Part shown: positions 13,748-60,260 of the stretch, piece by piece | Numbering within the stretch: position 1 is the first letter of the stretch | Layout: the number at the start of each line of letters is the position of its first letter | DNA from: an uncultured Gammaproteobacteria bacterium | Lineage (GTDB): Bacteria > Pseudomonadota > Gammaproteobacteria > JAURND01 | Reading direction: 5' to 3' | Assembly: GCA_963797335.1 (NCBI GenBank) | Contig: CAWCOU010000006.1 | Span: 760,483-824,482 of the forward strand | Length of the DNA stretch: 64,000 nucleotides | Translations under genes and position numbers: made by a program | The notes under the pieces: generated by a model | The model's input: only the letters and a program-made list of their open reading frames with translations | What the model was told of the DNA's origin: nothing | Database searches by the model: none

Positions 13748-13774
13748 TACCCCCCTCTCTCCCACTCTATGGCT

Positions 13775-14060
13775 AGGGTATGCCCACATCTTTCTCAGCC
13801 AGCTGTGAATGAATATTAGATTAGGGGTTAGCACTGTACGCCCCCTCTCCCGCGCGAGGGGCTTGAATAAAGGCTCTGAACTTGTTCGCGGGAGAGGGTT
13901 GGGGAGAGGGCGAATGGAAGCGCGCGACTTTACCCTCTCCCCTAACCCTCTCCCGCGAATAGGTTTGCAGCTTTTGCCCAAACTTCTCGCGCGGGAGAGG
14001 GGGTTTACAGTGCTAATCGTTAATCGAGTGCCTACTCACAGTTGACTAAAGAGAAGAGGG
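13775..14060. repeat. Repeat family F1 copy 1: ~290-bp nested palindromic MITE-like element filling the convergent leuS/pnp gap
   Basis: Outer arms ttagcactgtacgccccctctcccgcgcgagggg / cctctcgcgcgggagagggggtttacagtgctaa, inner arms ttcgcgggagagggttggggagagggcg / ccctctcccctaaccctctcccgcgaa, and terminal agggtatgc.cacatcttt...cag.caact.tga motifs. Near-identical copies at 26184-26480 and 57426-57721. Confidence 0.8.
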
Positions 14061-14081
14061 AGAAGGATTCACTATTTTGTT

Positions 14082-16621: not shown

Positions 16622-16758
16622 AAAATTCCCCTTTGTGGTGTGAACCGGCACCGCTGTCATGTGCAGGAACCGGTGGTTATTGGGTAAAAGTAAACGTGGA
16701 AGGGTATACTGCTCGGCGATAAATAGCAAGCCAGTCTATCACTGTGCGTTCTGAGAGA

Positions 16759-16905
16759 GGTGCCACTCCACGCATGAAGTATCCCAGGGGCTGGCTGCAA
16801 ACACGCATAAATACGTCCATCGTAGCTCCCTAATTCCTCCCTGAATTAGAGGGTTTGCATCCAGCCCCTGGGATACTTCATGCTTACTTGGGCAGAACAC
16901 CCGTT
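16759..16905. repeat. Repeat family F3 copy (palindrome catgaagtatcccaggggctggctgca ... tgcatccagcccctgggatacttcatg)
   Basis: Inverted arms seen directly. Copies at 42134-42320 and 43879-44078. Confidence 0.75.
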
Positions 16906-17007
16906 GTCCCGGCACAGGCGTCAACTTAAAGTAACTCCTTCTCCCATCGGGAGAAGGATATTTAAACAAGGGTGGGCAAGCATAGCGTGCCCACCTTTTG
17001 GCAGAGT

Positions 17008-24581: not shown

Positions 24582-25289
24582 TTATGTCACTGTGGATAAT
24601 GGGTGTGGGCTGATCAGCGGTGTCCACGTGCCCACTTGTTTTTTTGCTACGATTAAATAGACCGCGCCATTGCTTGACCAGAGTATGGGTCCTATTGCCT
24701 CCAGCGCTAACAAATAGTGCAGCCAGTTCTTGCGATTGATGGGCGGCCGAAAAAACAAACCGCGCTGCGTTTCTATATGAAAGTCGTGATGATGCAGGTA
24801 ACGAATGAGCGTGGCTTGACTGCGAAAACGTCCTTGCCACGGCGGTGTCCGTTGTCGTCGTAAATATTTTAATGCGCCCCACACACTGTAGGGATTAAAT
24901 CCCAAAATAATTAATTTACCTTCGGGTGTTAATATTCTGTGCATTTGCCGCAATAACACATCTGGATCGGTCATAAATTCCAAAATGTGCGGGGCCAGAA
25001 TGACATCGACACTTTCGGATAGAAAAGGTAATTGCCGTAAATCACCTTGAACACCAGAACCTGGGTAAGAAGGAGAGAACTCGGGACTTATGCGAACACG
25101 ATGGGCGATCGGCGATTTTTCAAATAAATACGTTTCACTCGGGCCACCTATTTGTAAAAATTGATGACCGAAATAGTGAGGCAGGTACTGATCCAACTCC
25201 AAACGTTCAGCAGCGAGCAGCTCTGAACCTAACAGAGACTGGTACCACGCATCCATTTGTCTTAGAATAATTTCTGTCGAATGGTGCAT
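24582..25289 (-). CDS. SAM-dependent methyltransferase (YafS-like)
   Basis: 235 aa class I methyltransferase fold. Sits between rnhA and gloB exactly as yafS does in E. coli. Confidence 0.7.
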
Positions 25290-25320
25290 TATCTTGGCTT
25301 ACCATAAATGACTTAACTCG

Positions 25321-26115
25321 TTGACCACCGAAGGAATGTTACTCATGCTGCGAGTATTGCCTGTTCCTGCTTTTAAAGACAATTACATTTGGCTGATTAT
25401 ACACAACTCATCGCCATCTTGCCTTATTATCGATCCGGGCGAAGCACAACCGGTGCTCGCTATTTTGCAGGAGCAGTCACTGCAACCAACGGGCATTTTA
25501 TTAACCCACCACCATTGGGATCATGTCAATGGCGTGGCTGAATTACAGCAACATTATTCCTTACGCGTATTCGGCCCTGCGCAAGAGACGATTGAAACAG
25601 TGACTGATCCTGTGCAAGCGGGCGATAATCTGACCTGGCCCGGCTGGGATCTAGAGCTGAGGGTGATGGCTATTCCCGGCCATACCCGCGGTCACGTCGC
25701 TTACACCGGTGATGGCATGTTATTTTGCGGTGATACGTTGTTTACCGGCGGCTGCGGGCGCTTATTTGAAGGAACGGCTGAACAGATGTACCATTCCTTA
25801 CAAGCGCTGGCTGGCTTACCTGAGGAAACCTCTGTTTATTGCGGGCATGAGTACACCGAAGCCAACCTAAGATTTGCACAGGCAGTCGAGCCCGACAATC
25901 AGGACCTGTTACTGCGAATCAAACAAACGGCGATGCTTAGGGCTCAACAGCTACCCACCGTTCCCAGCTCATTAGCCCTAGAGAAGCAGACCAATCCTTT
26001 CTTACGCTGCCACCTGGACTCGGTTCGACAAGCGGCGGAAAAACACGCCGCCACCTCACTGCATGATCCAGTCGCTGTGTTTCGCACTATCCGTGCATGG
26101 AAAGATAACTTTTGA
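25321..26115 (+). CDS. gloB: Hydroxyacylglutathione hydrolase (glyoxalase II)
   Basis: Metallo-beta-lactamase motif LLTHHHWDHVNG. Likely true start at the Met at 25345 (MLRVLPVPAFKDNYIWLI). Confidence 0.9.
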   Translation: MTTEGMLLMLRVLPVPAFKDNYIWLIIHNSSPSCLIIDPGEAQPVLAILQEQSLQPTGILLTHHHWDHVNGVAELQQHYSLRVFGPAQETIETVTDPVQAGDNLTWPGWDLELRVMAIPGHTRGHVAYTGDGMLFCGDTLFTGGCGRLFEGTAEQMYHSLQALAGLPEETSVYCGHEYTEANLRFAQAVEPDNQDLLLRIKQTAMLRAQQLPTVPSSLALEKQTNPFLRCHLDSVRQAAEKHAATSLHDPVAVFRTIRAWKDNF

Positions 26116-26183
26116 AACACCCATCGTCATTGGAGCAGGGATTGTTGCGCTGATCAAAAACTCCTTCTCCCCTTTTGTGGGCT

Positions 26184-26480
26184 AAGGGGTATGCACTCAT
26201 CTTTTTCAGTCAACTATGAATAGTCACCGGATTAACGATTAGCACTGTAAGCCCCCTCTCCCGCGCGAGGAGTTTGGGCAAAAGCTGCAAACCTATTCGC
26301 GGGAGAGGGTTGGGGGAGAGGGTAAAGTCTCGCGCTATCCCTTCGCCCTCTCCCCAACCCTCTCCCGCGAACAAGTTCAGAGCCTTTATTCAAGCCCCTC
26401 GCGCGGGAGAGGGGCTTACAGTGCTAAACCCTAATCTAATACTCACTCACAGCTGGCTGAACAGATGCGGTCAACTTATC
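26184..26480. repeat. Repeat family F1 copy 2, inverted relative to copy 1
   Basis: Near-identical nested palindrome (see copy 1); between gloB and mltD. Confidence 0.8.
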
Positions 26481-28814: not shown

Positions 28815-28903
28815 ACCCCTCATCCGCCTTCGGCACCTTCTCCCACAGGGGGAGAAGGAATTATTTTCTTAAGTTGACGCCTATGCCCACAAGGGGAGAA
28901 GGA
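28815..28903. repeat. Repeat family F5 copy (two short hairpins cttctcccacagggggagaag and cccacaaggggagaagg)
   Basis: cccctcatccgccttcggcaccttctcccacagggggagaaggaattattttcttaagttgacgcctatgcccacaaggggagaaggatc. Copies at 49025-49097 and 60154-60260, fragments at ~26513 and ~45255. Confidence 0.7.
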
Positions 28904-42133: not shown

Positions 42134-42320
42134 GAGCCAGCTCGCGCATGAAATATTGCTCAAGCTCCGTGCTACATATAGCAGGAGCCAGTTCGCGCAT
42201 GAAGTATCCCAGGGGCTGGCTGCAGACACGCATAAATACATCCATCGTAGCTCCCGTGTCATCCATGAATTAGAGGGTCTGCAGCCAGCACCTGGGATAC
42301 TTCATGCTTACTTGGGCAGT
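42134..42320. repeat. Repeat family F3 copy (left flank of the sixA cassette), with two leader direct repeats gagccag[c/t]tcgcgcatgaa
   Basis: catgaagtatcccaggggctggctgcagac...gtctgcagccagcacctgggatacttcatg. Confidence 0.75.
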
Positions 42321-42328
42321 ACATCTCA

Positions 42329-42470
42329 CCCGTCATTGCGAACGAATCACACGTCATTGCGAGCGAAGCGTGGCAATCTCCAGAGGGTTTCCGCCTCGTT
42401 TCGATTGCCATATTGCGCTCACAAAACGAAAAACTTGTCTTTTATTCTTAAAATACGGTGCAAGTTGTTA
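42329..42470. repeat. Repeat family F4, single copy plus a partial (core cgtcattgcgagcgaagcgtggcaatctccag...gattgccat)
   Basis: Reverse complement of the 110-bp unit triplicated at 43530-43875. Confidence 0.75.
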
Positions 42471-42590
42471 CTCTTGATGATTAGCCTTCCTTAATCCTTA
42501 ATGGGGCGGCCTGTGCTAGTGGTTGAAATATAGTGTGTGATGAGGGATTATGAAGCTGCTGGGGGAAGGGCCTTAAGGAGTTTAAGTAAG

Positions 42591-43064
42591 ATGAAACTTT
42601 ATTTAATCCGTCATGGCGATGCGGTTTCTAGCTTTGAAGATTCGCAACGGCCTTTAAGTGAGACAGGGGTCTTGCAAGTGACTCGGTTGGCGCAGGAGCT
42701 GTCTCGGCAGGGCATGGCAGCGGCTCAGTTATATCATAGCGGTATATTACGAGCAGAACAAACGGGGGGCATTTTGCAGCAAATTCTACAGATACCGGTG
42801 ATGGAAAAACTACCGTTTTTACAACCGGAATCTGAAGTGGAACCCGTTTTGCAAAACATGATGACCTGGACTGACGACACAGTCCTGGTTAGCCATCTAC
42901 CTTATTTACCGCAGTTATTATGGAACTTAGTTGGCGAAGCCAGCGCACAAATTGTATTTCAACCCGCCACCGGTGTTTGTTTGGATAATCCAAATTGGGG
43001 TAAATCCTCAGCCGAGCACTCCGCCTCGTCTCAATGGCAAATCAGCGAGGTGCTAACCGGATGA
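42591..43064 (+). CDS. sixA: Phosphohistidine phosphatase SixA
   Basis: 157 aa from MKLYLIRHGDA (histidine phosphatase RHG motif). AAGGAG lies 10 nt upstream. The ORF-track start at 42537 adds 18 aa. Confidence 0.8.
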   Translation: MKLYLIRHGDAVSSFEDSQRPLSETGVLQVTRLAQELSRQGMAAAQLYHSGILRAEQTGGILQQILQIPVMEKLPFLQPESEVEPVLQNMMTWTDDTVLVSHLPYLPQLLWNLVGEASAQIVFQPATGVCLDNPNWGKSSAEHSASSQWQISEVLTG

Positions 43065-43510
43065 GTATCGCACCGCAGTTAACACTTCGTCCTTCACGTT
43101 GCTATGTCTGCATACTCAGTCTTATTTATACCGGTGCCTTGGTTTGTTTATGTATAGCCGCAGCTCCTCTGGCACTAAAAATACCAGCCGCGTTGCTTTT
43201 GCTATGCCTGGCTAAGCAACATATCTATGATCGCAGTTTATTGCGCCATGCGCAGGCAATTATAGATTTGCACGCCGACCAAAACGGCATCTGGCATTTA
43301 TACAAACGCAATGAAACCGATGGTCAACAAGCCACCTTATCCGGTACCAGTGTCGTCACACCATGGTTTGTCGTGTTACATTTCCAACCGCGAACAACCC
43401 CGATCGTTATTTGGTTTGACAGCCTCGACACCACCACCTTCCGCCGTTTAAGGGTATACCTACGCACAACTTCTTCTCTGGCTACCCCACTGAGGAAGGC
43501 TAATCATTAA
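43061..43510 (+). CDS. Inner membrane protein, YgfX/CptA-like (DUF1434 family)
   Basis: Two N-terminal TM helices then a soluble domain ending VIWFDSLDTTTFRRLRVYL (cf. E. coli YgfX LWLAADSMDEAEWRDLRRILL). The ATG overlaps the sixA stop (ATGA). Confidence 0.45.
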   Translation: MSIAPQLTLRPSRCYVCILSLIYTGALVCLCIAAAPLALKIPAALLLLCLAKQHIYDRSLLRHAQAIIDLHADQNGIWHLYKRNETDGQQATLSGTSVVTPWFVVLHFQPRTTPIVIWFDSLDTTTFRRLRVYLRTTSSLATPLRKANH

Positions 43511-43529
43511 GTGTAACTACTTGCACCCT

Positions 43530-43875
43530 ATTTTAAGAAAGAAAAGACGAGTTTTTCGTCTCGTGGGCGAAGCATGGCAATCCAAACGAGGCGGAAACCC
43601 CCTGGAGATTGCCGCGCTTCGCTCGCAATGACGAGTGAGGTATTTTAAGAAATAAGACGAGTTTGTTGTCTTGTGAGCGCCGCGTGGCAATCCAAACGAG
43701 GCGGAAACTCCCTGGAGATTGCCGCGCTTCGCTCGCAATGACGAGTGAGGTATTTTAAGAAATAAGACGAGTTTGTTGTCTTGTGAGCGCCGCGTGGCAA
43801 TCCAAACGAGGAGGAAACTCCCTGGAGATTGCCGCGCTTCGCTCGCAATGACGGGTGATTCGCTCATAATGACGT
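43530..43875. repeat. Tandem array of three 110-bp F4 units plus a partial fourth, inverted relative to 42329-42470
   Basis: Unit ggtattttaagaaataagacgagtttgttgtcttgtgagcgccgcgtggcaatccaaacgaggcggaaactccctggagattgccgcgcttcgctcgcaatgacgagtga, period 110. Confidence 0.85.
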
Positions 43876-43878
43876 GTA

Positions 43879-44078
43879 GGATGTACTGCCCAAGTAAGCA
43901 TGAAGTATCCCAGGGGCTGGCTGCAGACCTTCTAATTCAGGGATGACACGAGAGCAACATGGATCGTATTCATGCGTGTCTGCAGCCAGCCCCTGGGATA
44001 CTTCATGCGTGAGGTGGCTCCTGCTATATGTAGCACGAACCCGAAGAAGGATGGTTCATGTGCGAGGTGGCACCTCTT
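43879..44078. repeat. Repeat family F3 copy (right flank of the sixA cassette), inverted relative to 42134-42320
   Basis: The inner asymmetric segment is the reverse complement of the left copy. The cttacttgggcag termini of both copies point towards the cargo. Confidence 0.75.
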
Positions 44079-45238: not shown

Positions 45239-45332
45239 TCCGTCGTCCCGCGACTTGTCCCATAGGCACTTGTGGGAGAAGGAGTTTTCTACTTGTGTAG
45301 ATACTAGTGGGCTTGTCCGCGGGACGACGTGC
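45239..45332. repeat. Short palindromic element cgtcgtcccgcgacttgtccc ... gggcttgtccgcgggacgacg with an F5-like fragment inside; preceded by a C10 tract
   Basis: Inverted arms seen directly. The C10 homopolymer is at 45226-45235. Confidence 0.6.
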
Positions 45333-49024: not shown

Positions 49025-49097
49025 CTCCTTCTCCCCTTGTGGGAGAAGGATTTTTTTTCTTAAGTTGGCGCCTATGCCCACAAGGAGAGAAGGAGTA
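49025..49097. repeat. Repeat family F5 copy between dnaB and rplI
   Basis: cttctccccttgtgggagaaggattttttttcttaagttggcgcctatgcccacaaggagagaagga. Confidence 0.7.
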
Positions 49098-57383: not shown

Positions 57384-57425
57384 AAAGTATTCTCGATCAG
57401 AAAATCCCTTTCTCCCTCAAGGGCC

Positions 57426-57721
57426 AGGGTATACACACATCTTTTTTAGCCAACTATGAGTAGGCACCGGATTAATAATTAGCACTGTAAACTCCCTCTC
57501 CCGCGCGAGAAGTTTGGACAAAAGTTGCAAACCTATTCGCGGGAGAGGGTTGGGGGAGAGGGTAACGTCTCGCGCTATCCATTCGCCCTCTCCCCAACCC
57601 TCTCCCGCGAACAAGTTCAGAGCCTTTATTCAAGCCCCTCGCGCGGGAGAGGGGGCCTACAGTGCTAACCCCTAATCTAATACTCACTCACAGTTGACTG
57701 AAAAAGATGTGTGCATACCCT
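57426..57721. repeat. Repeat family F1 copy 3, with both terminal inverted repeats intact
   Basis: agggtatacacacatcttttttagccaactatgag ... cacagttgactgaaaaagatgtgtgcataccct flanking the nested palindrome. Confidence 0.8.
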
Positions 57722-57753
57722 AGTCATCAAGGGAAGAAAGAGATTTCCGTGGT

Positions 57754-58275
57754 TTATTTGATGCTAATTAAATGTACTTTAAACACTAACGGTTGGTTTG
57801 GGCCGATCACGCCGCCGGCGCCGCGTTCACCGTAGGCTAATTCGGCGGGGATATACAGCATCCAAGTTGCGCCGGTATTCATGAGTGGTAACGCTTCTTG
57901 CCAGCCTGGAATAACACCGGTCACCGGGAAGGTGGCGGGTTGACCGCGCTGGTATGAACTGTCAAATACCTGCCCGTTAATCAATCGGCCTTCGTAATCC
58001 ACCGTCACTGTACTATCTTTGCTCGGTTTTTTCCCAGTTCCTGCCGTTATAATTTCGTATTGCAAACCGCTGGGTAAGGTGACGATTTTGGGTTTATGTT
58101 TATTCGCTTCCATAAAAGCTTCACCTGCTTGTTTATTGGTGTCGGCCACATTCGCCGAGCTGGTTGTCGGGACGGATGATGAACTGTCATCGGCTGCAAG
58201 TGCAGCGAGTGGTGCACACAGAAATAGAGATAAAGCGCCAACCGCTATTCCGCTCAATAGGTTTTTATTTTTCAT
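57754..58275 (-). CDS. FKBP-type peptidyl-prolyl cis-trans isomerase (short Mip/FkpA-like), secreted
   Basis: 173 aa with a signal peptide and FKBP domain [19 protein letters not shown]...[14 protein letters not shown]...[11 protein letters not shown]. Confidence 0.88.
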
Positions 58276-58362
58276 TTGGGTGATCTCCTTATTTAAACAA
58301 TCGCAATGCTCATTCGAAGCTCGTCGTGCCTGCGGGACGGTGACCCCGATGAGCTGTGCACC

Positions 58363-59187
58363 TTAAGCAGGTACAGGGTGATACGATACCATATTAAAAA
58401 GTGACTGCAAATTGGAAGATGTGTTGGCGGGGAATTGCCAAGCTGATGGGTATTCGACGACCGTTAGATAGAGTCCTTGGGGTGGTGCGGTGATACCCGC
58501 CTGGCGACGATCCTTGGCCAATAATACGGTATGGGCCCATTCCGGTGTTCGCTTCCCGGTGCCAATATCCAATAATACCCCGACGATATTACGCACCATG
58601 TGATGCAAGAACGCATTGGCGGTAATCGCCACGGTCACAAAATCACCGGTTCGGCGCACCTGCAACTGCCGTACGCAACGATGCACCGTTTTGGATTGAC
58701 AATCGGCTGCGCGGAACGAGCTGAAATCTTGTTCGCCTACTAAAAACTCTGCGGCGGCTGCCATGGCATCGACGTTCAGCGCATACGGGAACCACGTGAC
58801 TTGCTGGCGAAAGATGGCAGGTTGTGCGTGGTGATTATAAAGAACGTACAGATAACTACGTGATAAAGCAGTGAAACGGGCATGGAAGGTTTCAGCAACC
58901 GGGGTCGCCCATTGCACACGAATGTCCGCTGGTAAGTAGCGATTGATTCCGGCGACAAACGCCGATTCTCTTCTGGAAACGCCGGTATCAAAGTGAACGA
59001 CTTGCGCTAAGGCATGGACCCCGCGGTCTGTTCTTCCGGCACACGTCACTTGTACGGGATGATTGACTATCTGGGCTATCGCTGCTTCTAAGGTCTGCTG
59101 GATGGTTTTGCTGGGCATGTTCGATTGGGCTTGCCAACCATGATATGCACTACCCTCATACTCCACACCTAATGCCCAACGCACCAC
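58363..59187 (-). CDS. truA: tRNA pseudouridine(38-40) synthase
   Basis: 274 aa, ALGVEYEGSAYHGWQAQ...GRTDRGVHA catalytic Asp motif. Confidence 0.93.
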   Translation of the reverse strand: MVRWALGVEYEGSAYHGWQAQSNMPSKTIQQTLEAAIAQIVNHPVQVTCAGRTDRGVHALAQVVHFDTGVSRRESAFVAGINRYLPADIRVQWATPVAETFHARFTALSRSYLYVLYNHHAQPAIFRQQVTWFPYALNVDAMAAAAEFLVGEQDFSSFRAADCQSKTVHRCVRQLQVRRTGDFVTVAITANAFLHHMVRNIVGVLLDIGTGKRTPEWAHTVLLAKDRRQAGITAPPQGLYLTVVEYPSAWQFPANTSSNLQSLFNMVSYHPVPA

Positions 59188-59199
59188 ACGACCTCGCTG

Positions 59200-60078
59200 T
59201 TATTTTTGTTCGGCAGCTTCTGCTTGTAATATAATTTCCTTAGCTTCTGCCTGTTGTTCTGCCGTGCCTTTATCTAACACCATTTGTAGTGTTTCTCGCA
59301 CCGCCTCTACATCCGCCATTTCCAGATAGGCTCGGGCTAAGTCTAGCCGAACCGGCATGGCATCGGGGCTGTTCATAAAATCAAACTCATCGTCATCACT
59401 GTCGTGCTGTGAGAATGCCACGGCTTTATCGGTAAAGTCTTCTTCGCTTTCAACCAGGTCATCGTCTAAGTCGAGATCAGTGGCTTCGTCGGCTTCTTCC
59501 AGGAGTAATTCGTCGCTCTCTTCATCTTCATCTTCTTCATGACTTTCCAGCAATAAGTCTTCGTTGAAGTCAAAGTCGGATTCGTTCTGGTCTTCTTCTT
59601 CGGCTTCTTCTAAGAGATCTTCGCTAAACGCGCTGTCTTCCATGGCGGGTCGTAAGGGGTCTTCGGCAAATGCAACCGGGTCTGGTGGAAAATGTTTGGG
59701 TCGTTCCGGCGTCGTGGCGAGTTCAGAAACGGGTTTTGTTCGTGGGACTAATAACCATATTAATCCCGCGACGGCGGCGACGATCAGGGCAATTCCTAAT
59801 AATAGTAGCCAACCCATCCCGCTAAATAAAAAGTCTAAGAAGCCTTGTTGATTCATTCCTTTCGATAGTTGGCTGGGGTCAATGGTTTGCACCTCGGCTA
59901 AGGATTGCCGGAGCTGAACGACTTGCTGGCTTAGGGTGATGACTTGTTGTTGTAAACTGGTATTTTGTTCGCGCAGTGCCTGCCATGCTTCTGGGGTAGG
60001 CGACGATGGCGGTTCATCGGCCCAAATGGGGGTGATGATCAGCCCCAGGAGAATGAGGATCCAGCGGGTTGTTTTCAT
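59200..60078 (-). CDS. Short FimV-like protein (signal peptide, coiled coil, one TM, acidic D/E-rich tract, conserved FimV C-terminal domain)
   Basis: C-terminus LDLARAYLEMADVEAVRETLQMVLDKGTAEQQAEAKEIIL resembles the FimV C-terminal motif. Lies immediately upstream of truA, a conserved FimV position. Confidence 0.6.
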   Translation of the reverse strand: MKTTRWILILLGLIITPIWADEPPSSPTPEAWQALREQNTSLQQQVITLSQQVVQLRQSLAEVQTIDPSQLSKGMNQQGFLDFLFSGMGWLLLLGIALIVAAVAGLIWLLVPRTKPVSELATTPERPKHFPPDPVAFAEDPLRPAMEDSAFSEDLLEEAEEEDQNESDFDFNEDLLLESHEEDEDEESDELLLEEADEATDLDLDDDLVESEEDFTDKAVAFSQHDSDDDEFDFMNSPDAMPVRLDLARAYLEMADVEAVRETLQMVLDKGTAEQQAEAKEIILQAEAAEQK

Positions 60079-60153
60079 ACTTGTTTACCTTTGGAAGATT
60101 TTAAAGTCCATCTGTATAGAGTAATCTATTGTAAAATATCTTGTTCCAAGATG

Positions 60154-60260
60154 CTAATTTTTACCCCTCATCCGCCCTCACGGGCACCTTCTCCCACAGG
60201 GGGAGAAGGAAAATATTTAGAAAATTTGAATTATTTAACGCCCCCACAAGGGAAGGGGGG
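60154..60260. repeat. Repeat family F5 copy (diverged) in the folB upstream region
   Basis: acccctcatccgccctcacgggcaccttctcccacagggggagaagga ... cgcccccacaagggaagggggg. Confidence 0.65.

What the first reader, a model, noticed from the sequence alone, without database searches (positions are those of the whole stretch)
13775..14060. F1: a ~290-bp nested-palindrome MITE-like element present three times in 64 kb
Copies at 13775-14060, 26184-26480 (inverted) and 57426-57721 are over 90% identical. Each consists of terminal inverted repeats (agggtatgcacacatcttttt cag tcaact.tga) enclosing two nested perfect palindromes built on ctctcccgcgcg / gggagagggttgggggagaggg. The whole unit can fold into a ~250-nt hairpin or cruciform. 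The copies sit exactly in intergenic gaps (convergent leuS/pnp, gloB-mltD, accD-FKBP) and encode no protein. This points to a non-autonomous mobile element that also supplies terminator or RNA structure. Three copies per 64 kb would imply hundreds genome-wide if the window is representative.
Basis: seen in the sequence. Interest (0 to 1): 0.55.

Follow-up and report, generated by a model that had tools for sequence, protein, structure and literature searches.

The report
Gene-less relic of endonuclease cassette
Three ~300-bp hairpin-forming repeats between genes are real, and they are stripped-down copies of a small, probably selfish cassette that in related bacteria carries a DUF559 (Vsr-like) endonuclease gene between the same inverted arms.

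Summary
Three copies (13753-14066, 26152-26466, 57401-57747) are 89-95% identical, lie in intergenic gaps and fold into one long hairpin (RNA -241 kcal/mol, z -20.6). Only copy 3 keeps both terminal inverted repeats.

Each copy holds two inverted ~70-nt modules, CCCTCTCCCGCG-N32-CGCGGGAGAGGG-TT-GGGGAGAGGG. The module core is the BoxC/PIT intrastrand-triplex motif known from E. coli.

In Legionella species and related metagenomic genomes the same arms flank a 111-117-aa DUF559 endonuclease gene. There the module supplies the ribosome-binding site and start codon on one side and the C-terminal ...LSPTLSRE-stop on the other. Intact, truncated and gene-less forms make a graded series. In the window a shared 22-23-nt scar replaces the ORF, so a gene-less form multiplied.

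An intact DUF559 protein (P0123) maps to a contig of the same length (1,290,392 bp) as the window's GloB.

The element is not QMITE1 and matches no Rfam family; QMITE2 was not compared. Its motif strings occur in no searchable paper. The mobilising activity, genome-wide copy number and target duplication remain untested. A terminator role is doubtful.

Verdict: a new variant of a known kind (MITE/REPIN-like). Interest is moderate to high.

The parts
57401..57747 (-). Copy 3, the most complete copy (whole palindrome including outer arms). The strand given is the 'A' strand, collinear with the DUF559 sense strand of relatives.
   Evidence: (I6)
57426..57449 (+). Copy 3 left terminal inverted repeat, AGGGTATACACACATCTTTTTTAG
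57698..57721 (-). Copy 3 right terminal inverted repeat (reverse complement AGGGTATGCACACATCTTTTTCAG)
57493..57562 (+). Copy 3 module B (3'-type; its reverse complement carries ...CCCTCTCCCGCGAATAG, the DUF559 C-terminus and stop context)
57563..57585 (-). Copy 3 centre, a 23-nt scar CGAATGGATAGCGCGAGACGTTA that replaces the ~320-nt ORF. It keeps the ATGGA start remnant after the GGGAGAGGG Shine-Dalgarno-like block.
57586..57655 (-). Copy 3 module A (5'-type, followed by CGAATGGA)
13753..14066 (+). Copy 1 (A strand is plus). The left TIR 13775-13798 is intact and the right TIR tip is deleted. The outer arm GGGAGAAGG lies at 14058-14066.
13841..13910 (+). Copy 1 module A
13911..13932 (+). Copy 1 centre scar, CGAATGGAAGCGCGCGACTTTA
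13933..14003 (-). Copy 1 module B
26152..26466 (-). Copy 2 (A strand is minus). The left TIR 26184-26209 is intact. The right end is truncated after CTGAACAGATG. The left outer arm CCTTCTCCC lies at 26163.
26252..26322 (+). Copy 2 module B
26323..26345 (-). Copy 2 centre scar (reverse complement CGAAGGGATAGCGCGAGACTTTA; the ATG is mutated to AGG)
26346..26414 (-). Copy 2 module A

Best explanation
The three loci are copies of a non-autonomous palindromic repeat. It is the gene-less form of a small cassette found across Legionellales-like gammaproteobacteria.

In the full cassette, long inverted arms (100-190 nt each) end in a conserved ~70-nt BoxC-like module (CCCTCTCCCGCG - ~32-nt loop - CGCGGGAGAGGG TT GGGGAGAGGG). 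The arms bracket a 111-117-aa DUF559 (Vsr-like PD-(D/E)XK) endonuclease gene. One module provides GGGAGAGGG as the ribosome-binding site a few bases before the ATG. The other encodes the last residues (...LSPTLSRE) and the stop codon.

Shown: an internal deletion removed the ORF and left a 22-23-nt scar. This deleted form is present at three unrelated intergenic sites, each associated with CCTTCTCCC/GGGAGAAGG hairpin arms.

Inferred: spread depended on functions supplied in trans, most likely the resident intact DUF559 nuclease acting on the modules or arms together with host repair or replication. That would be an arrangement analogous to RAYT/REPIN.

Inferred: in place, the element puts a ~150-bp hairpin into read-through transcripts. 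This is more likely a processing or stability element than a terminator.

The copies here are 5-10% diverged and two of three have lost a tip, so they are probably old and mostly inactive.
For: Homology to DUF559 cassettes:
- c3 (A strand) positions 73-165 match the upstream arm of the L114 DUF559 cassette at 85%, and positions 189-281 match the downstream arm at 81%. They are collinear, and the 316-nt ORF interval is replaced by the 23-nt centre.
- The same holds for L110 and L108, at 84% over ~100 nt per arm.
- The flanked ORFs are DUF559, PF04480, E 1e-39 to 1e-44.

Module anatomy:
- In most of the 57 aligned modules the module is followed by (A)AATGG(A), i.e. SD plus ATG. The window's A modules are followed by CGAATGGA.
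- The window's B modules keep CGCGAATAG, the stop-codon context.

Decay series:
- Gaps between inverted modules run 12, 13, 71, 189, 204, 223, 253, 293, 322, 322, 368, 553 and 1267 nt, with truncated DUF559 remnants in the intermediates.
- Of 38 loci with a full module, 7 have an intact gene, 3 a truncated gene and 28 none.

Gene-less form copied:
- The three window copies share the same centre scar.

Resident intact gene:
- P0123 (117 aa, 82% identical to the L110 protein) keeps all residues that are invariant in a 10-sequence alignment and has the C-terminus ...YQTLSPTLSRE.
- It is recorded on a single contig of 1,290,392 bp. That is the same length as the contig carrying the window's own GloB, P0001, which is 100% identical to the window.

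Whole palindrome as the repeated unit in other genomes:
- L. dresdenensis has three copies with shared tips, and L. anisa has the same tips with an intact gene.

Repeat breaks assemblies:
- Short-read (Logan) contigs of the same organism break inside c3 and c2.
Against: - No transposition event, target-site duplication or empty site could be shown. The nearest relative's GloB is only 63% identical.
- The locus of P0123 could not be read, so it is unknown whether it carries the same tips.
- DUF559 has no demonstrated role in DNA mobility.
- The palindrome tips differ between subfamilies while the inner part is conserved. This fits neither a classical transposase nor a simple REPIN model.
- Most loci were ascertained through an exact 20-mer inside the module, so module conservation is inflated.
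- Gene conversion among pre-existing copies could also spread one scar.
- BoxC motifs were reported as not associated with mobile elements in E. coli.
Confidence: 0.6

Rival explanations
1. Classical MITE. The element is mobilised by a DDE transposase that recognises the outer TIRs, possibly a TA-duplicating IS630/mariner-like enzyme. The DUF559 gene and its BoxC modules are only passenger or cargo sequence in the longer relatives.
For: - The TIRs are clear, about 24-35 nt.
- The tips read TA|GGGTA...TACCC|TA in the window and TA|GGTAACG...CGTTACC|TA in Legionella type-D copies. This is compatible with a TA duplication.
- The whole palindrome, tips included, is the repeated unit within a genome.
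- IS elements do occur in these cassettes: L033 has an IS5-like insert.
Against: - No transposase-bearing relative with these tips was found. The TIR pattern gives 0 hits in JGI metagenomes, and the element has no plasmid hits.
- Tips are the least conserved part across subfamilies, whereas the inner modules and the DUF559 gene are the most conserved.
- The transposase in L033 interrupts the cassette rather than defining it.
Confidence: 0.2
2. Homing model. A palindromic repeat family existed first. DUF559 is a free-standing homing endonuclease gene that invades the centre of such repeats and is later lost by decay. The window copies are then post-decay or target alleles rather than transposed deletion derivatives.
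For: - The DUF559/Vsr clan includes a proven homing endonuclease, I-Bth0305I, PDB 3r3p. The sequence match is weak, E 0.33.
- Intact, truncated and absent states coexist.
- Conservation is highest next to the gene and decays outward, as expected from co-conversion tracts.
- ycjD is present in only 3378 of 5426 E. coli genomes.
Against: - The centre of the gene-less copies keeps the ATG(GA) start remnant and the stop context, so they once held the ORF.
- All three share one scar.
- Homing does not explain how the palindromes reached unrelated loci.
Confidence: 0.12
3. Host-selected structural element. The repeats are BoxC/PIT-type triplex or hairpin motifs kept for a cellular role (RNA processing or stability, supercoiling, replication pausing) and spread by recombination. 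They are not selfish mobile DNA, and DUF559 adjacency is incidental.
For: - The core equals the BoxC/PIT motif, which forms an intrastrand triplex in vitro and occurs as inverted A+B pairs in E. coli.
- The copies occupy tight intergenic gaps next to essential genes.
- c3 arm mismatches are biased to G.T on one strand, 26 vs 8, p 0.003.
Against: - No function was found for PIT elements in earlier work.
- Orientation relative to transcription differs among the three copies.
- The G.T bias does not generalise: 24 vs 17 in other cassettes.
- DUF559 adjacency is far above chance, in 15 of 112 fetched loci.
- Two of the three copies are decaying.
Confidence: 0.08

Closest known systems
BoxC / PIT (potential intrastrand triplex) / TMECO elements of E. 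coli (Holder et al. 2015, PMC4666352, and work cited there)
   Same: - Same three-block core: CCCTCTCCC ... GGGAGAGGG - TT(A/G) - GGG(G/T)GAGGG.
- Intergenic and highly conserved.
- Occur as inverted pairs of two slightly different types, with the purine blocks facing a short spacer (16 nt for TMECO 1+2, as calculated from Table 1 coordinates). The window has the same layout, with a 22-23-nt spacer.
- One E. coli copy lies about 170 nt downstream of ycjD, the E. coli DUF559 gene.
   Different: - The first loop here is ~38 nt including an extra GCG/CGC stem, against 3-5 nt in BoxC.
- The motif here is embedded in ~100-nt further arms with TIRs.
- BoxC was reported as not linked to mobile elements, and no DUF559 link was described.
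REPIN / RAYT systems (Bertels and Rainey 2011, PMC3116915, PMC3337134)
   Same: - A single small gene is flanked by inverted hairpin repeats.
- Many gene-less inverted doublets that form long hairpins are dispersed in intergenic DNA.
- Gene-less units outnumber gene-bearing ones.
   Different: - The flanked gene is a PD-(D/E)XK DUF559 nuclease, not an IS200-like Y1 (HUH) transposase.
- Modules are 70 nt and arms 100-190 nt, against ~20-25-nt REPs.
- There is no GTAG/CGTC tag.
- Mobilisation is not demonstrated.
QMITE1 / QMITE2 of Coxiella burnetii (Wachter et al. 2018, PMC5896051)
   Same: - Gammaproteobacterial intracellular-type genome context.
- 150-400-bp TIR-bearing, hairpin-forming intergenic repeats.
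- They lie near 3' ends of genes.
   Different: - There is no similarity to QMITE1-encoded DUF1658 peptides.
- There is no IHF site.
- There are no sigma-70-like promoters in the two copies scanned, c1 and c3.
- The core motif is different.
- The organism is not C. burnetii: 47% G+C and a 23S rRNA without introns. That C. burnetii has about 42.5% G+C and group I introns in its 23S rRNA is recalled from general knowledge, not checked here.
Correia (NEMIS) elements of Neisseria (recalled from general knowledge, not read here)
   Same: - Small TIR elements with possible TA flanks.
- Inserted close to genes.
- They form long RNA hairpins that are RNase III substrates.
- No cognate transposase is known.
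   Different: - There is no sequence relation.
- Correia elements have no gene-bearing relatives, and they carry IHF sites and promoters.
Free-standing or intron-borne homing endonuclease genes of the Vsr-like clan (I-Bth0305I, PDB 3r3p)
   Same: - Small nuclease gene of the same structural clan.
- Presence/absence and decay states.
   Different: - The sequence link is only weak (E 0.33).
- It is embedded in long palindromes at many loci, not in one conserved host gene.

Membership tests
MITE (miniature inverted-repeat transposable element) | Small size (<~500 bp) and no coding capacity | tested here: met
   Copies are 296-347 bp. There is no Pfam hit, no conserved ORF and no protein homologues.
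MITE (miniature inverted-repeat transposable element) | Terminal inverted repeats | tested here: met
   A 24-nt or longer TIR is present at both ends of c3 and at one end each of c1 and c2.
MITE (miniature inverted-repeat transposable element) | Target-site duplication flanking the copies | tested here: inconclusive
   Only one copy has both ends. TA at both tips, or TCAAG 2-5 nt away, are both possible. Outer CCTTCTCCC arms confound the boundary.
MITE (miniature inverted-repeat transposable element) | Multiple dispersed copies in one genome | tested here: met
   Three copies lie at unrelated loci within 64 kb. Short-read contigs of the same organism break in the repeat. The genome-wide count was not obtainable.
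MITE (miniature inverted-repeat transposable element) | Related autonomous element encoding a transposase with the same TIRs | tested here: not met
   Longer relatives encode DUF559, not a transposase. The TIR pattern gives 0 hits in JGI metagenomes. The source genome outside the window was not readable.
REPIN/RAYT | Inverted doublet of a repeated hairpin unit forming a long hairpin | tested here: met
   Two inverted 70-nt modules are present, and the whole unit folds with z -20.6.
REPIN/RAYT | Cognate gene flanked by the repeats is a RAYT (IS200-like Y1 transposase) | tested here: not met
   The flanked gene is DUF559 / PF04480.
BoxC / PIT / TMECO triplex motif | Three consecutive blocks, Y(CCCTCTCCC) - R(GGGAGAGGG) - R'(GGGNGAGGG) | tested here: met
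   All six modules carry the blocks. Outside Legionellales the same 20-mer sits in the canonical tight form. Compare Table 1 of PMC4666352.
BoxC / PIT / TMECO triplex motif | Short loops (1-6 nt) between the blocks | tested here: not met
   The first loop is ~38 nt in the window and in Legionellales modules. The second loop, TT, fits.
BoxC / PIT / TMECO triplex motif | Forms an intrastrand triplex | not testable with these tools
   The folding tools model duplex pairing only.
QMITE1 (C. burnetii) | Encodes or overlaps DUF1658 peptide sequences; homologous to CbsR13 | tested here: not met
   tblastn of six DUF1658 peptides gives no hit in any copy. The CbsR13 DNA itself was not available.
QMITE1 (C. 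burnetii) | Conserved IHF site WATCAANNNNTTR | tested here: not met
   There are four matches in the window and none lies in the copies.
DUF559 cassette (gene-bearing relatives; defined here) | Arms homologous and collinear with arms flanking a DUF559 ORF | tested here: met
   81-85% identity on both sides to L114, L110 and L108.
DUF559 cassette (gene-bearing relatives; defined here) | DUF559 ORF present between the modules | tested here: not met
   Only a 22-23-nt scar is left, and there is no DUF559 hit anywhere in the window.

The most novel reading that the evidence does not exclude
DUF559 (Vsr-like PD-(D/E)XK) endonuclease genes nested between inverted BoxC-type triplex/hairpin modules form an unrecognised class of selfish cassette. 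Their gene-less inverted doublets are its non-autonomous or relic forms: this element, Legionella doublets, and perhaps the long-unexplained BoxC/PIT pairs of E. coli next to ycjD. This would be a nuclease-based counterpart of the RAYT/REPIN system.
Probability: 0.3. Interest if true: 0.8.

Novelty: new variant of a known kind. Interest (0 to 1): 0.6.

Why it matters
BoxC/PIT motifs have been known since the 1990s. They are linked to genome instability, yet they have no known origin or function. DUF559 is a very large protein family, with more than 5000 clusters in one search, and it also has no assigned role.

A direct physical link makes both questions testable. The module supplies the ribosome-binding site, the start codon context and the C-terminal codons of the gene. 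Intact, decayed and gene-less forms form a graded series. The experiment that follows is whether DUF559 binds or cuts these structures and whether that drives copying.

For genome annotation, it explains a class of assembly-breaking intergenic palindromes in Legionellales-like bacteria.

Tried and rejected
- QMITE1 identity was rejected.
- Rfam: no family at gathering threshold. The E-value search gave only generic hairpin matches to miRNA models, far below threshold.
- A protein search with the longest ORF inside the element found no homologue.
- A scan of JGI metagenomes with the TIR pattern gave 0 hits. The viral contig scan gave 0 hits. The plasmid search gave no match.
- Reading the source genome failed. 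The >1-Mb contig is never returned, and only Logan fragments L001 and L113 come back.
- Empty-site comparison in relatives is impossible, because the closest GloB is 63% identical.
- Module stem covariation was not pursued. The 3' arm is fixed by the way the loci were ascertained (an exact 20-mer). The 5'-arm variant CCCTCGCCC is uncompensated within the module.
- A strand-specific G.U bias as a general sign of RNA-level selection was rejected. It is significant in c3 (26:8) but absent in eight other cassettes (24:17, p 0.35).
- The 42168-44037 inverted-repeat unit was considered as a parent IS and rejected. It encodes a His-phosphatase fragment and a CptA-like protein, not a transposase.
- A simple empty ycjD site in E. 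coli was not found. In clone D i2 the interval is replaced by other genes.

Full report
**Observation.** Reading the three regions, aligning them and running repeat and BLAST scans confirm three copies of one element.
- c3 vs c1 is 92.6% identical over 283 nt in inverted orientation.
- c3 vs c2 is 89.5% identical over 313 nt in direct orientation.
- c1 vs c2 segments are 92-99% identical.
- The 12-mer CCCTCTCCCGCG occurs 12 times, four per copy, against 0.24 expected.

Copy 3 is the only complete one. It has AGGGTAT[GA]CACACATCTTTTT[CT]AG at both ends (57426-57449 and 57698-57721). Copy 1 has lost its right tip. Copy 2's right end is truncated after ...CAGATG. Homology between copies runs ~25 nt further out into CCTTCTCCC / GGGAGAAGG-type arms.

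The unit folds into a single hairpin. As DNA it gives -102 kcal/mol (z -14.6). As RNA of the c3 minus strand it gives -241.5 kcal/mol (z -20.6, 155 pairs).

No ORF in the element has a Pfam hit or any homologue.

**Anatomy.** From outside to inside each copy has:
- an outer CCTTCTCCC-type arm;
- the TIR;
- a sub-terminal arm ending in TTAGCACTGTA;
- a ~70-nt module, CCCTCTCCCGCG - ~32 nt - CGCGGGAGAGGG TT GGGGAGAGGG;
- a 22-23-nt centre;
- the same parts inverted.

The two modules of a copy are not identical. The A type is followed by CGAATGGA. The reverse complement of the B type reads ...CCCTCTCCCGCGAATAG.

**Not a catalogued family that I could check.**
- Rfam has nothing at gathering threshold, and only generic hairpin hits below it.
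- The obvious candidate was QMITE1 of Coxiella burnetii (PMC5896051). Its DUF1658 peptides have no match in the copies and its IHF site is absent.
- The window is not C. burnetii: it has 47% G+C and a 23S rRNA without introns. The C. burnetii values I compare against (about 42.5% G+C, group I introns in 23S) are from memory.
- The motif strings occur in no paper of the searchable library, apart from one unrelated hit.

**Relatives elsewhere.** An exact 20-mer from the module (TTCGCGGGAGAGGGTTGGGG) is expected about once by chance in 596 Gb (my calculation). It hit more than 106 stretches in the species-representative genomes.
- In Legionella species and Legionellales MAGs the whole ~70-nt module is conserved at ~80%.
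- In other phyla only a tight-hairpin version is present: CCCTCTCCCG-TTCG-CGGGAGAGGGTTGGGGTGAGGG. This is the BoxC / PIT / TMECO motif of E. coli. It forms an intrastrand triplex in vitro, is intergenic, occurs as inverted A+B pairs, showed no promoter or terminator activity, and marks rearrangement-prone loci (PMC4666352).

**The key result.** A metagenome scan with CACTGTA-N3-5-CCCTCTCCCGCG returned five contigs.
- In L110 and L108 the same arm (TTAGCACTGTA plus module, 84% identical to c3) occurs as an inverted pair around a complete ORF of 117 or 112 aa. That ORF is DUF559, PF04480, E 6e-41 and 2e-43.
- The upstream module ends GGGAGAGGGAAATGGAC, which is a Shine-Dalgarno-like block followed by the ATG.
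- The last nine codons and the stop (..ALSPALSRE*) are the downstream module itself.

tblastn and an iterated HMM find DUF559 next to the motif in 15 of 112 fetched loci.
- It is intact in L. anisa, L. waltersii, L. moravica and several MAGs.
- It is truncated to the first 31-67 residues in L. dresdenensis and others.

The spacing between inverted modules forms a series: 12, 13, 71, 189, 204, 223, 253, 293, 322, 322, 368, 553 and 1267 nt. Of 38 loci with a full module, 7 have an intact gene, 3 a truncated one and 28 none. The 1267-nt case has an IS5-like insertion inside the cassette.

For the best-preserved relative (L114, ~660 bp, arms 195 nt with 92% complementarity), c3 is collinear. Positions 73-165 match the upstream arm at 85%. 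Positions 189-281 match the downstream arm at 81%. The ORF interval is replaced by the 23-nt centre.

The window centres keep ATGGA right after the A module (mutated to AGGGA in c2). They keep the stop context in the B module, and all three share the same scar. Hence the ORF was deleted once and the deleted form is what now sits at three loci.

**A resident intact gene.** The window's GloB is 100% identical to P0001, which is recorded on one contig of 1,290,392 bp. Among DUF559 homologues, P0123 is recorded on one contig of exactly that length. P0123 is 117 aa and 82% identical to the L110 protein. It retains all residues that are invariant in a 10-sequence alignment and ends ...YQTLSPTLSRE.

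I infer that the source genome carries at least one intact cassette outside the window. Its DNA could not be fetched. The Thr codon (ACC) before CTCTCC in all three window scars matches P0123 (QTLSP) rather than the Ala of its relatives. This is a one-base hint only.

**Mechanism.**
- Shown: the homology, the collinearity, the decay series, the shared scar, the dispersed intergenic positions and the hairpin potential.
- Inferred: gene-less copies were propagated by something supplied in trans. I favour the DUF559 nuclease acting on the modules or arms, with host repair or replication doing the copying. The architecture (one small gene between inverted hairpin repeats, many gene-less doublets) mirrors RAYT/REPIN (PMC3116915, PMC3337134). 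The Vsr/DUF559 clan also contains a homing endonuclease (PMC3424549; one search gives 3hrl E 1e-27 and 3r3p E 0.33).

Against a classical transposase, the tips are the least conserved part across subfamilies:
- window: TAGGGTATGCACACATC;
- L110: CTACAGAGC;
- L114: CTGTCATCCGGCG;
- Legionella type D: TAGGTAACGTCCCTAAAG.

The inner 100 nt and the gene are conserved. Within a genome, however, the whole palindrome including the tips is the repeated unit, and TA at both tips is compatible with a TA-duplicating enzyme. The transposase model therefore stays alive.

**Local effect.** c1 fills 314 of the 334 nt between convergent genes. c3 ends 6 nt after the FKBP stop and 17-18 nt before the accD start. 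No sigma-70-like promoter is predicted in the two regions scanned (c1, c3), and the only terminator-like site is one weak one in an outer arm of c3.
- accD is essential (general knowledge), so a strong terminator there is unlikely.
- A processed or stabilising hairpin is more plausible, but this is an inference.
- The orientation of the element relative to transcription differs among the copies.

**Strand bias.** c3 arm mismatches are biased to G.T on the DUF559-sense strand (26 vs 8, p 0.003). Eight gene-bearing cassettes show no such bias (24 vs 17). I do not build on this.

**Age and copy number.** The copies differ by 5-10% and two of three have lost a tip, so they look old. Short-read contigs of the same organism end inside c3 (at 57694) and inside c2 (at 26257). 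This behaviour is typical of a multi-copy repeat. Three copies per 64 kb extrapolates to about 60 on a 1.29-Mb contig, not hundreds, and this is untested.

**Comparison and novelty.** The core is a known motif (BoxC/PIT). The general kind (a small palindromic non-autonomous repeat) is known. The specific element was not found in any source I could search: Rfam, QMITE1 (through its peptides and IHF site), the paper library, plasmids and viral contigs. ISfinder, Dfam and Repbase could not be queried, and QMITE2 was not compared.

I found no description of the link between BoxC-type modules and DUF559 genes.
- Holder et al. report no association with mobile elements and do not mention the endonuclease.
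- A survey of programmed inversions lists DUF559 among enriched targets without comment.
- In E. coli K-12 the DUF559 gene ycjD ends in ...SPSP* encoded by CCCTCTCCC. TMECO no. 9 lies ~170 nt downstream.
- ycjD is present in 3378 of 5426 complete genomes.

I rate the finding a new variant of a known kind, with interest 0.6.

Noticed in passing
window 16937-16957, 28836-28903, 49027-49094, 60187-60209, 45274-45282: A family of short hairpins, CCTTCTCCC-N3-5-GGGAGAAGG. They often have an ACCCCTCATCCGCC...GGCA 5' extension and a nearby GTCAACTTAAG/TATGCCCAC segment that resembles the tips of the element. The three copies sit inside or next to such arms, so these hairpins may be the insertion target or extreme deletion derivatives.
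   Followed up: partly
window 2203-2251, 5022-5155, 8730-8882, 42347-42453, 43532-43748: A second repeat family of GC-rich hairpins, CACGTCATCCCGAGCGAAGCGAGGGA(T/C)C. They occur singly and as inverted pairs.
   Followed up: no
window 16758-16902, 42183-42323, 43879-44022: A third family: a ~145-nt palindromic element built on GCATGAAGTATCCCAGGGGCTGGCTGC / GCAGCCAGCCCCTGGGATACTTCATGC.
   Followed up: no
window 42168-44037: 285-nt inverted arms (86% complementary), made of the other repeat families, enclose 1.3 kb. That interval holds a histidine-phosphatase fragment and a CptA-like toxin ORF, plus a 110-nt tandem repeat (3 copies, 43544-43873). It does not encode a transposase.
   Followed up: partly
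L115 (E. coli K-12 NC_000913.3 1351040-1351840): The E. coli DUF559 gene ycjD ends ...RRSPSP*, encoded by CCCTCTCCC. A partial duplicate of its 3' end lies downstream. A canonical BoxC/TMECO motif (no. 9 of Holder et al.) lies ~170 nt downstream, just upstream of fabI. ycjD is present in only 3378 of 5426 complete E. coli genomes.
   Followed up: partly
L025, L006, L010 and other loci of Dehalococcoidia MAGs OZ240223.1 and OZ244722.1: These MAGs carry many copies per genome of the tight-hairpin BoxC-like core (…CCCCCTCTCCCG-TTCG-CGGGAGAGGGTTGGGGTGAGGG), sometimes in direct tandem ~100 nt apart. No DUF559 gene lies nearby.
   Followed up: no
L033 1188-2100 (Legionella waltersii): An IS5-like transposase (partly masked by N runs) is inserted between one module and the DUF559 gene. 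This recalls the 'transposase + DUF559' repeated segments reported as recombination hotspots in L. pneumophila (PMC12308824).
   Followed up: no
L001 = window 57694-60210; L113 = window 25172-26257: Short-read (Logan, ERR11523675) contigs of the same organism are 100% identical to the window. They end exactly inside c3, inside c2 and at the 60187 hairpin. The repeats therefore fragment assemblies.
   Followed up: yes
window 2447-2519 and L084 799-875: A tRNA gene of the window is 100% identical over 77 nt to one in Legionella dresdenensis.
   Followed up: no
L059 1775-1830: A GTCGAAA heptamer tandem array abuts and truncates the left arm of a gene-less doublet in a Legionella-like MAG.
   Followed up: no
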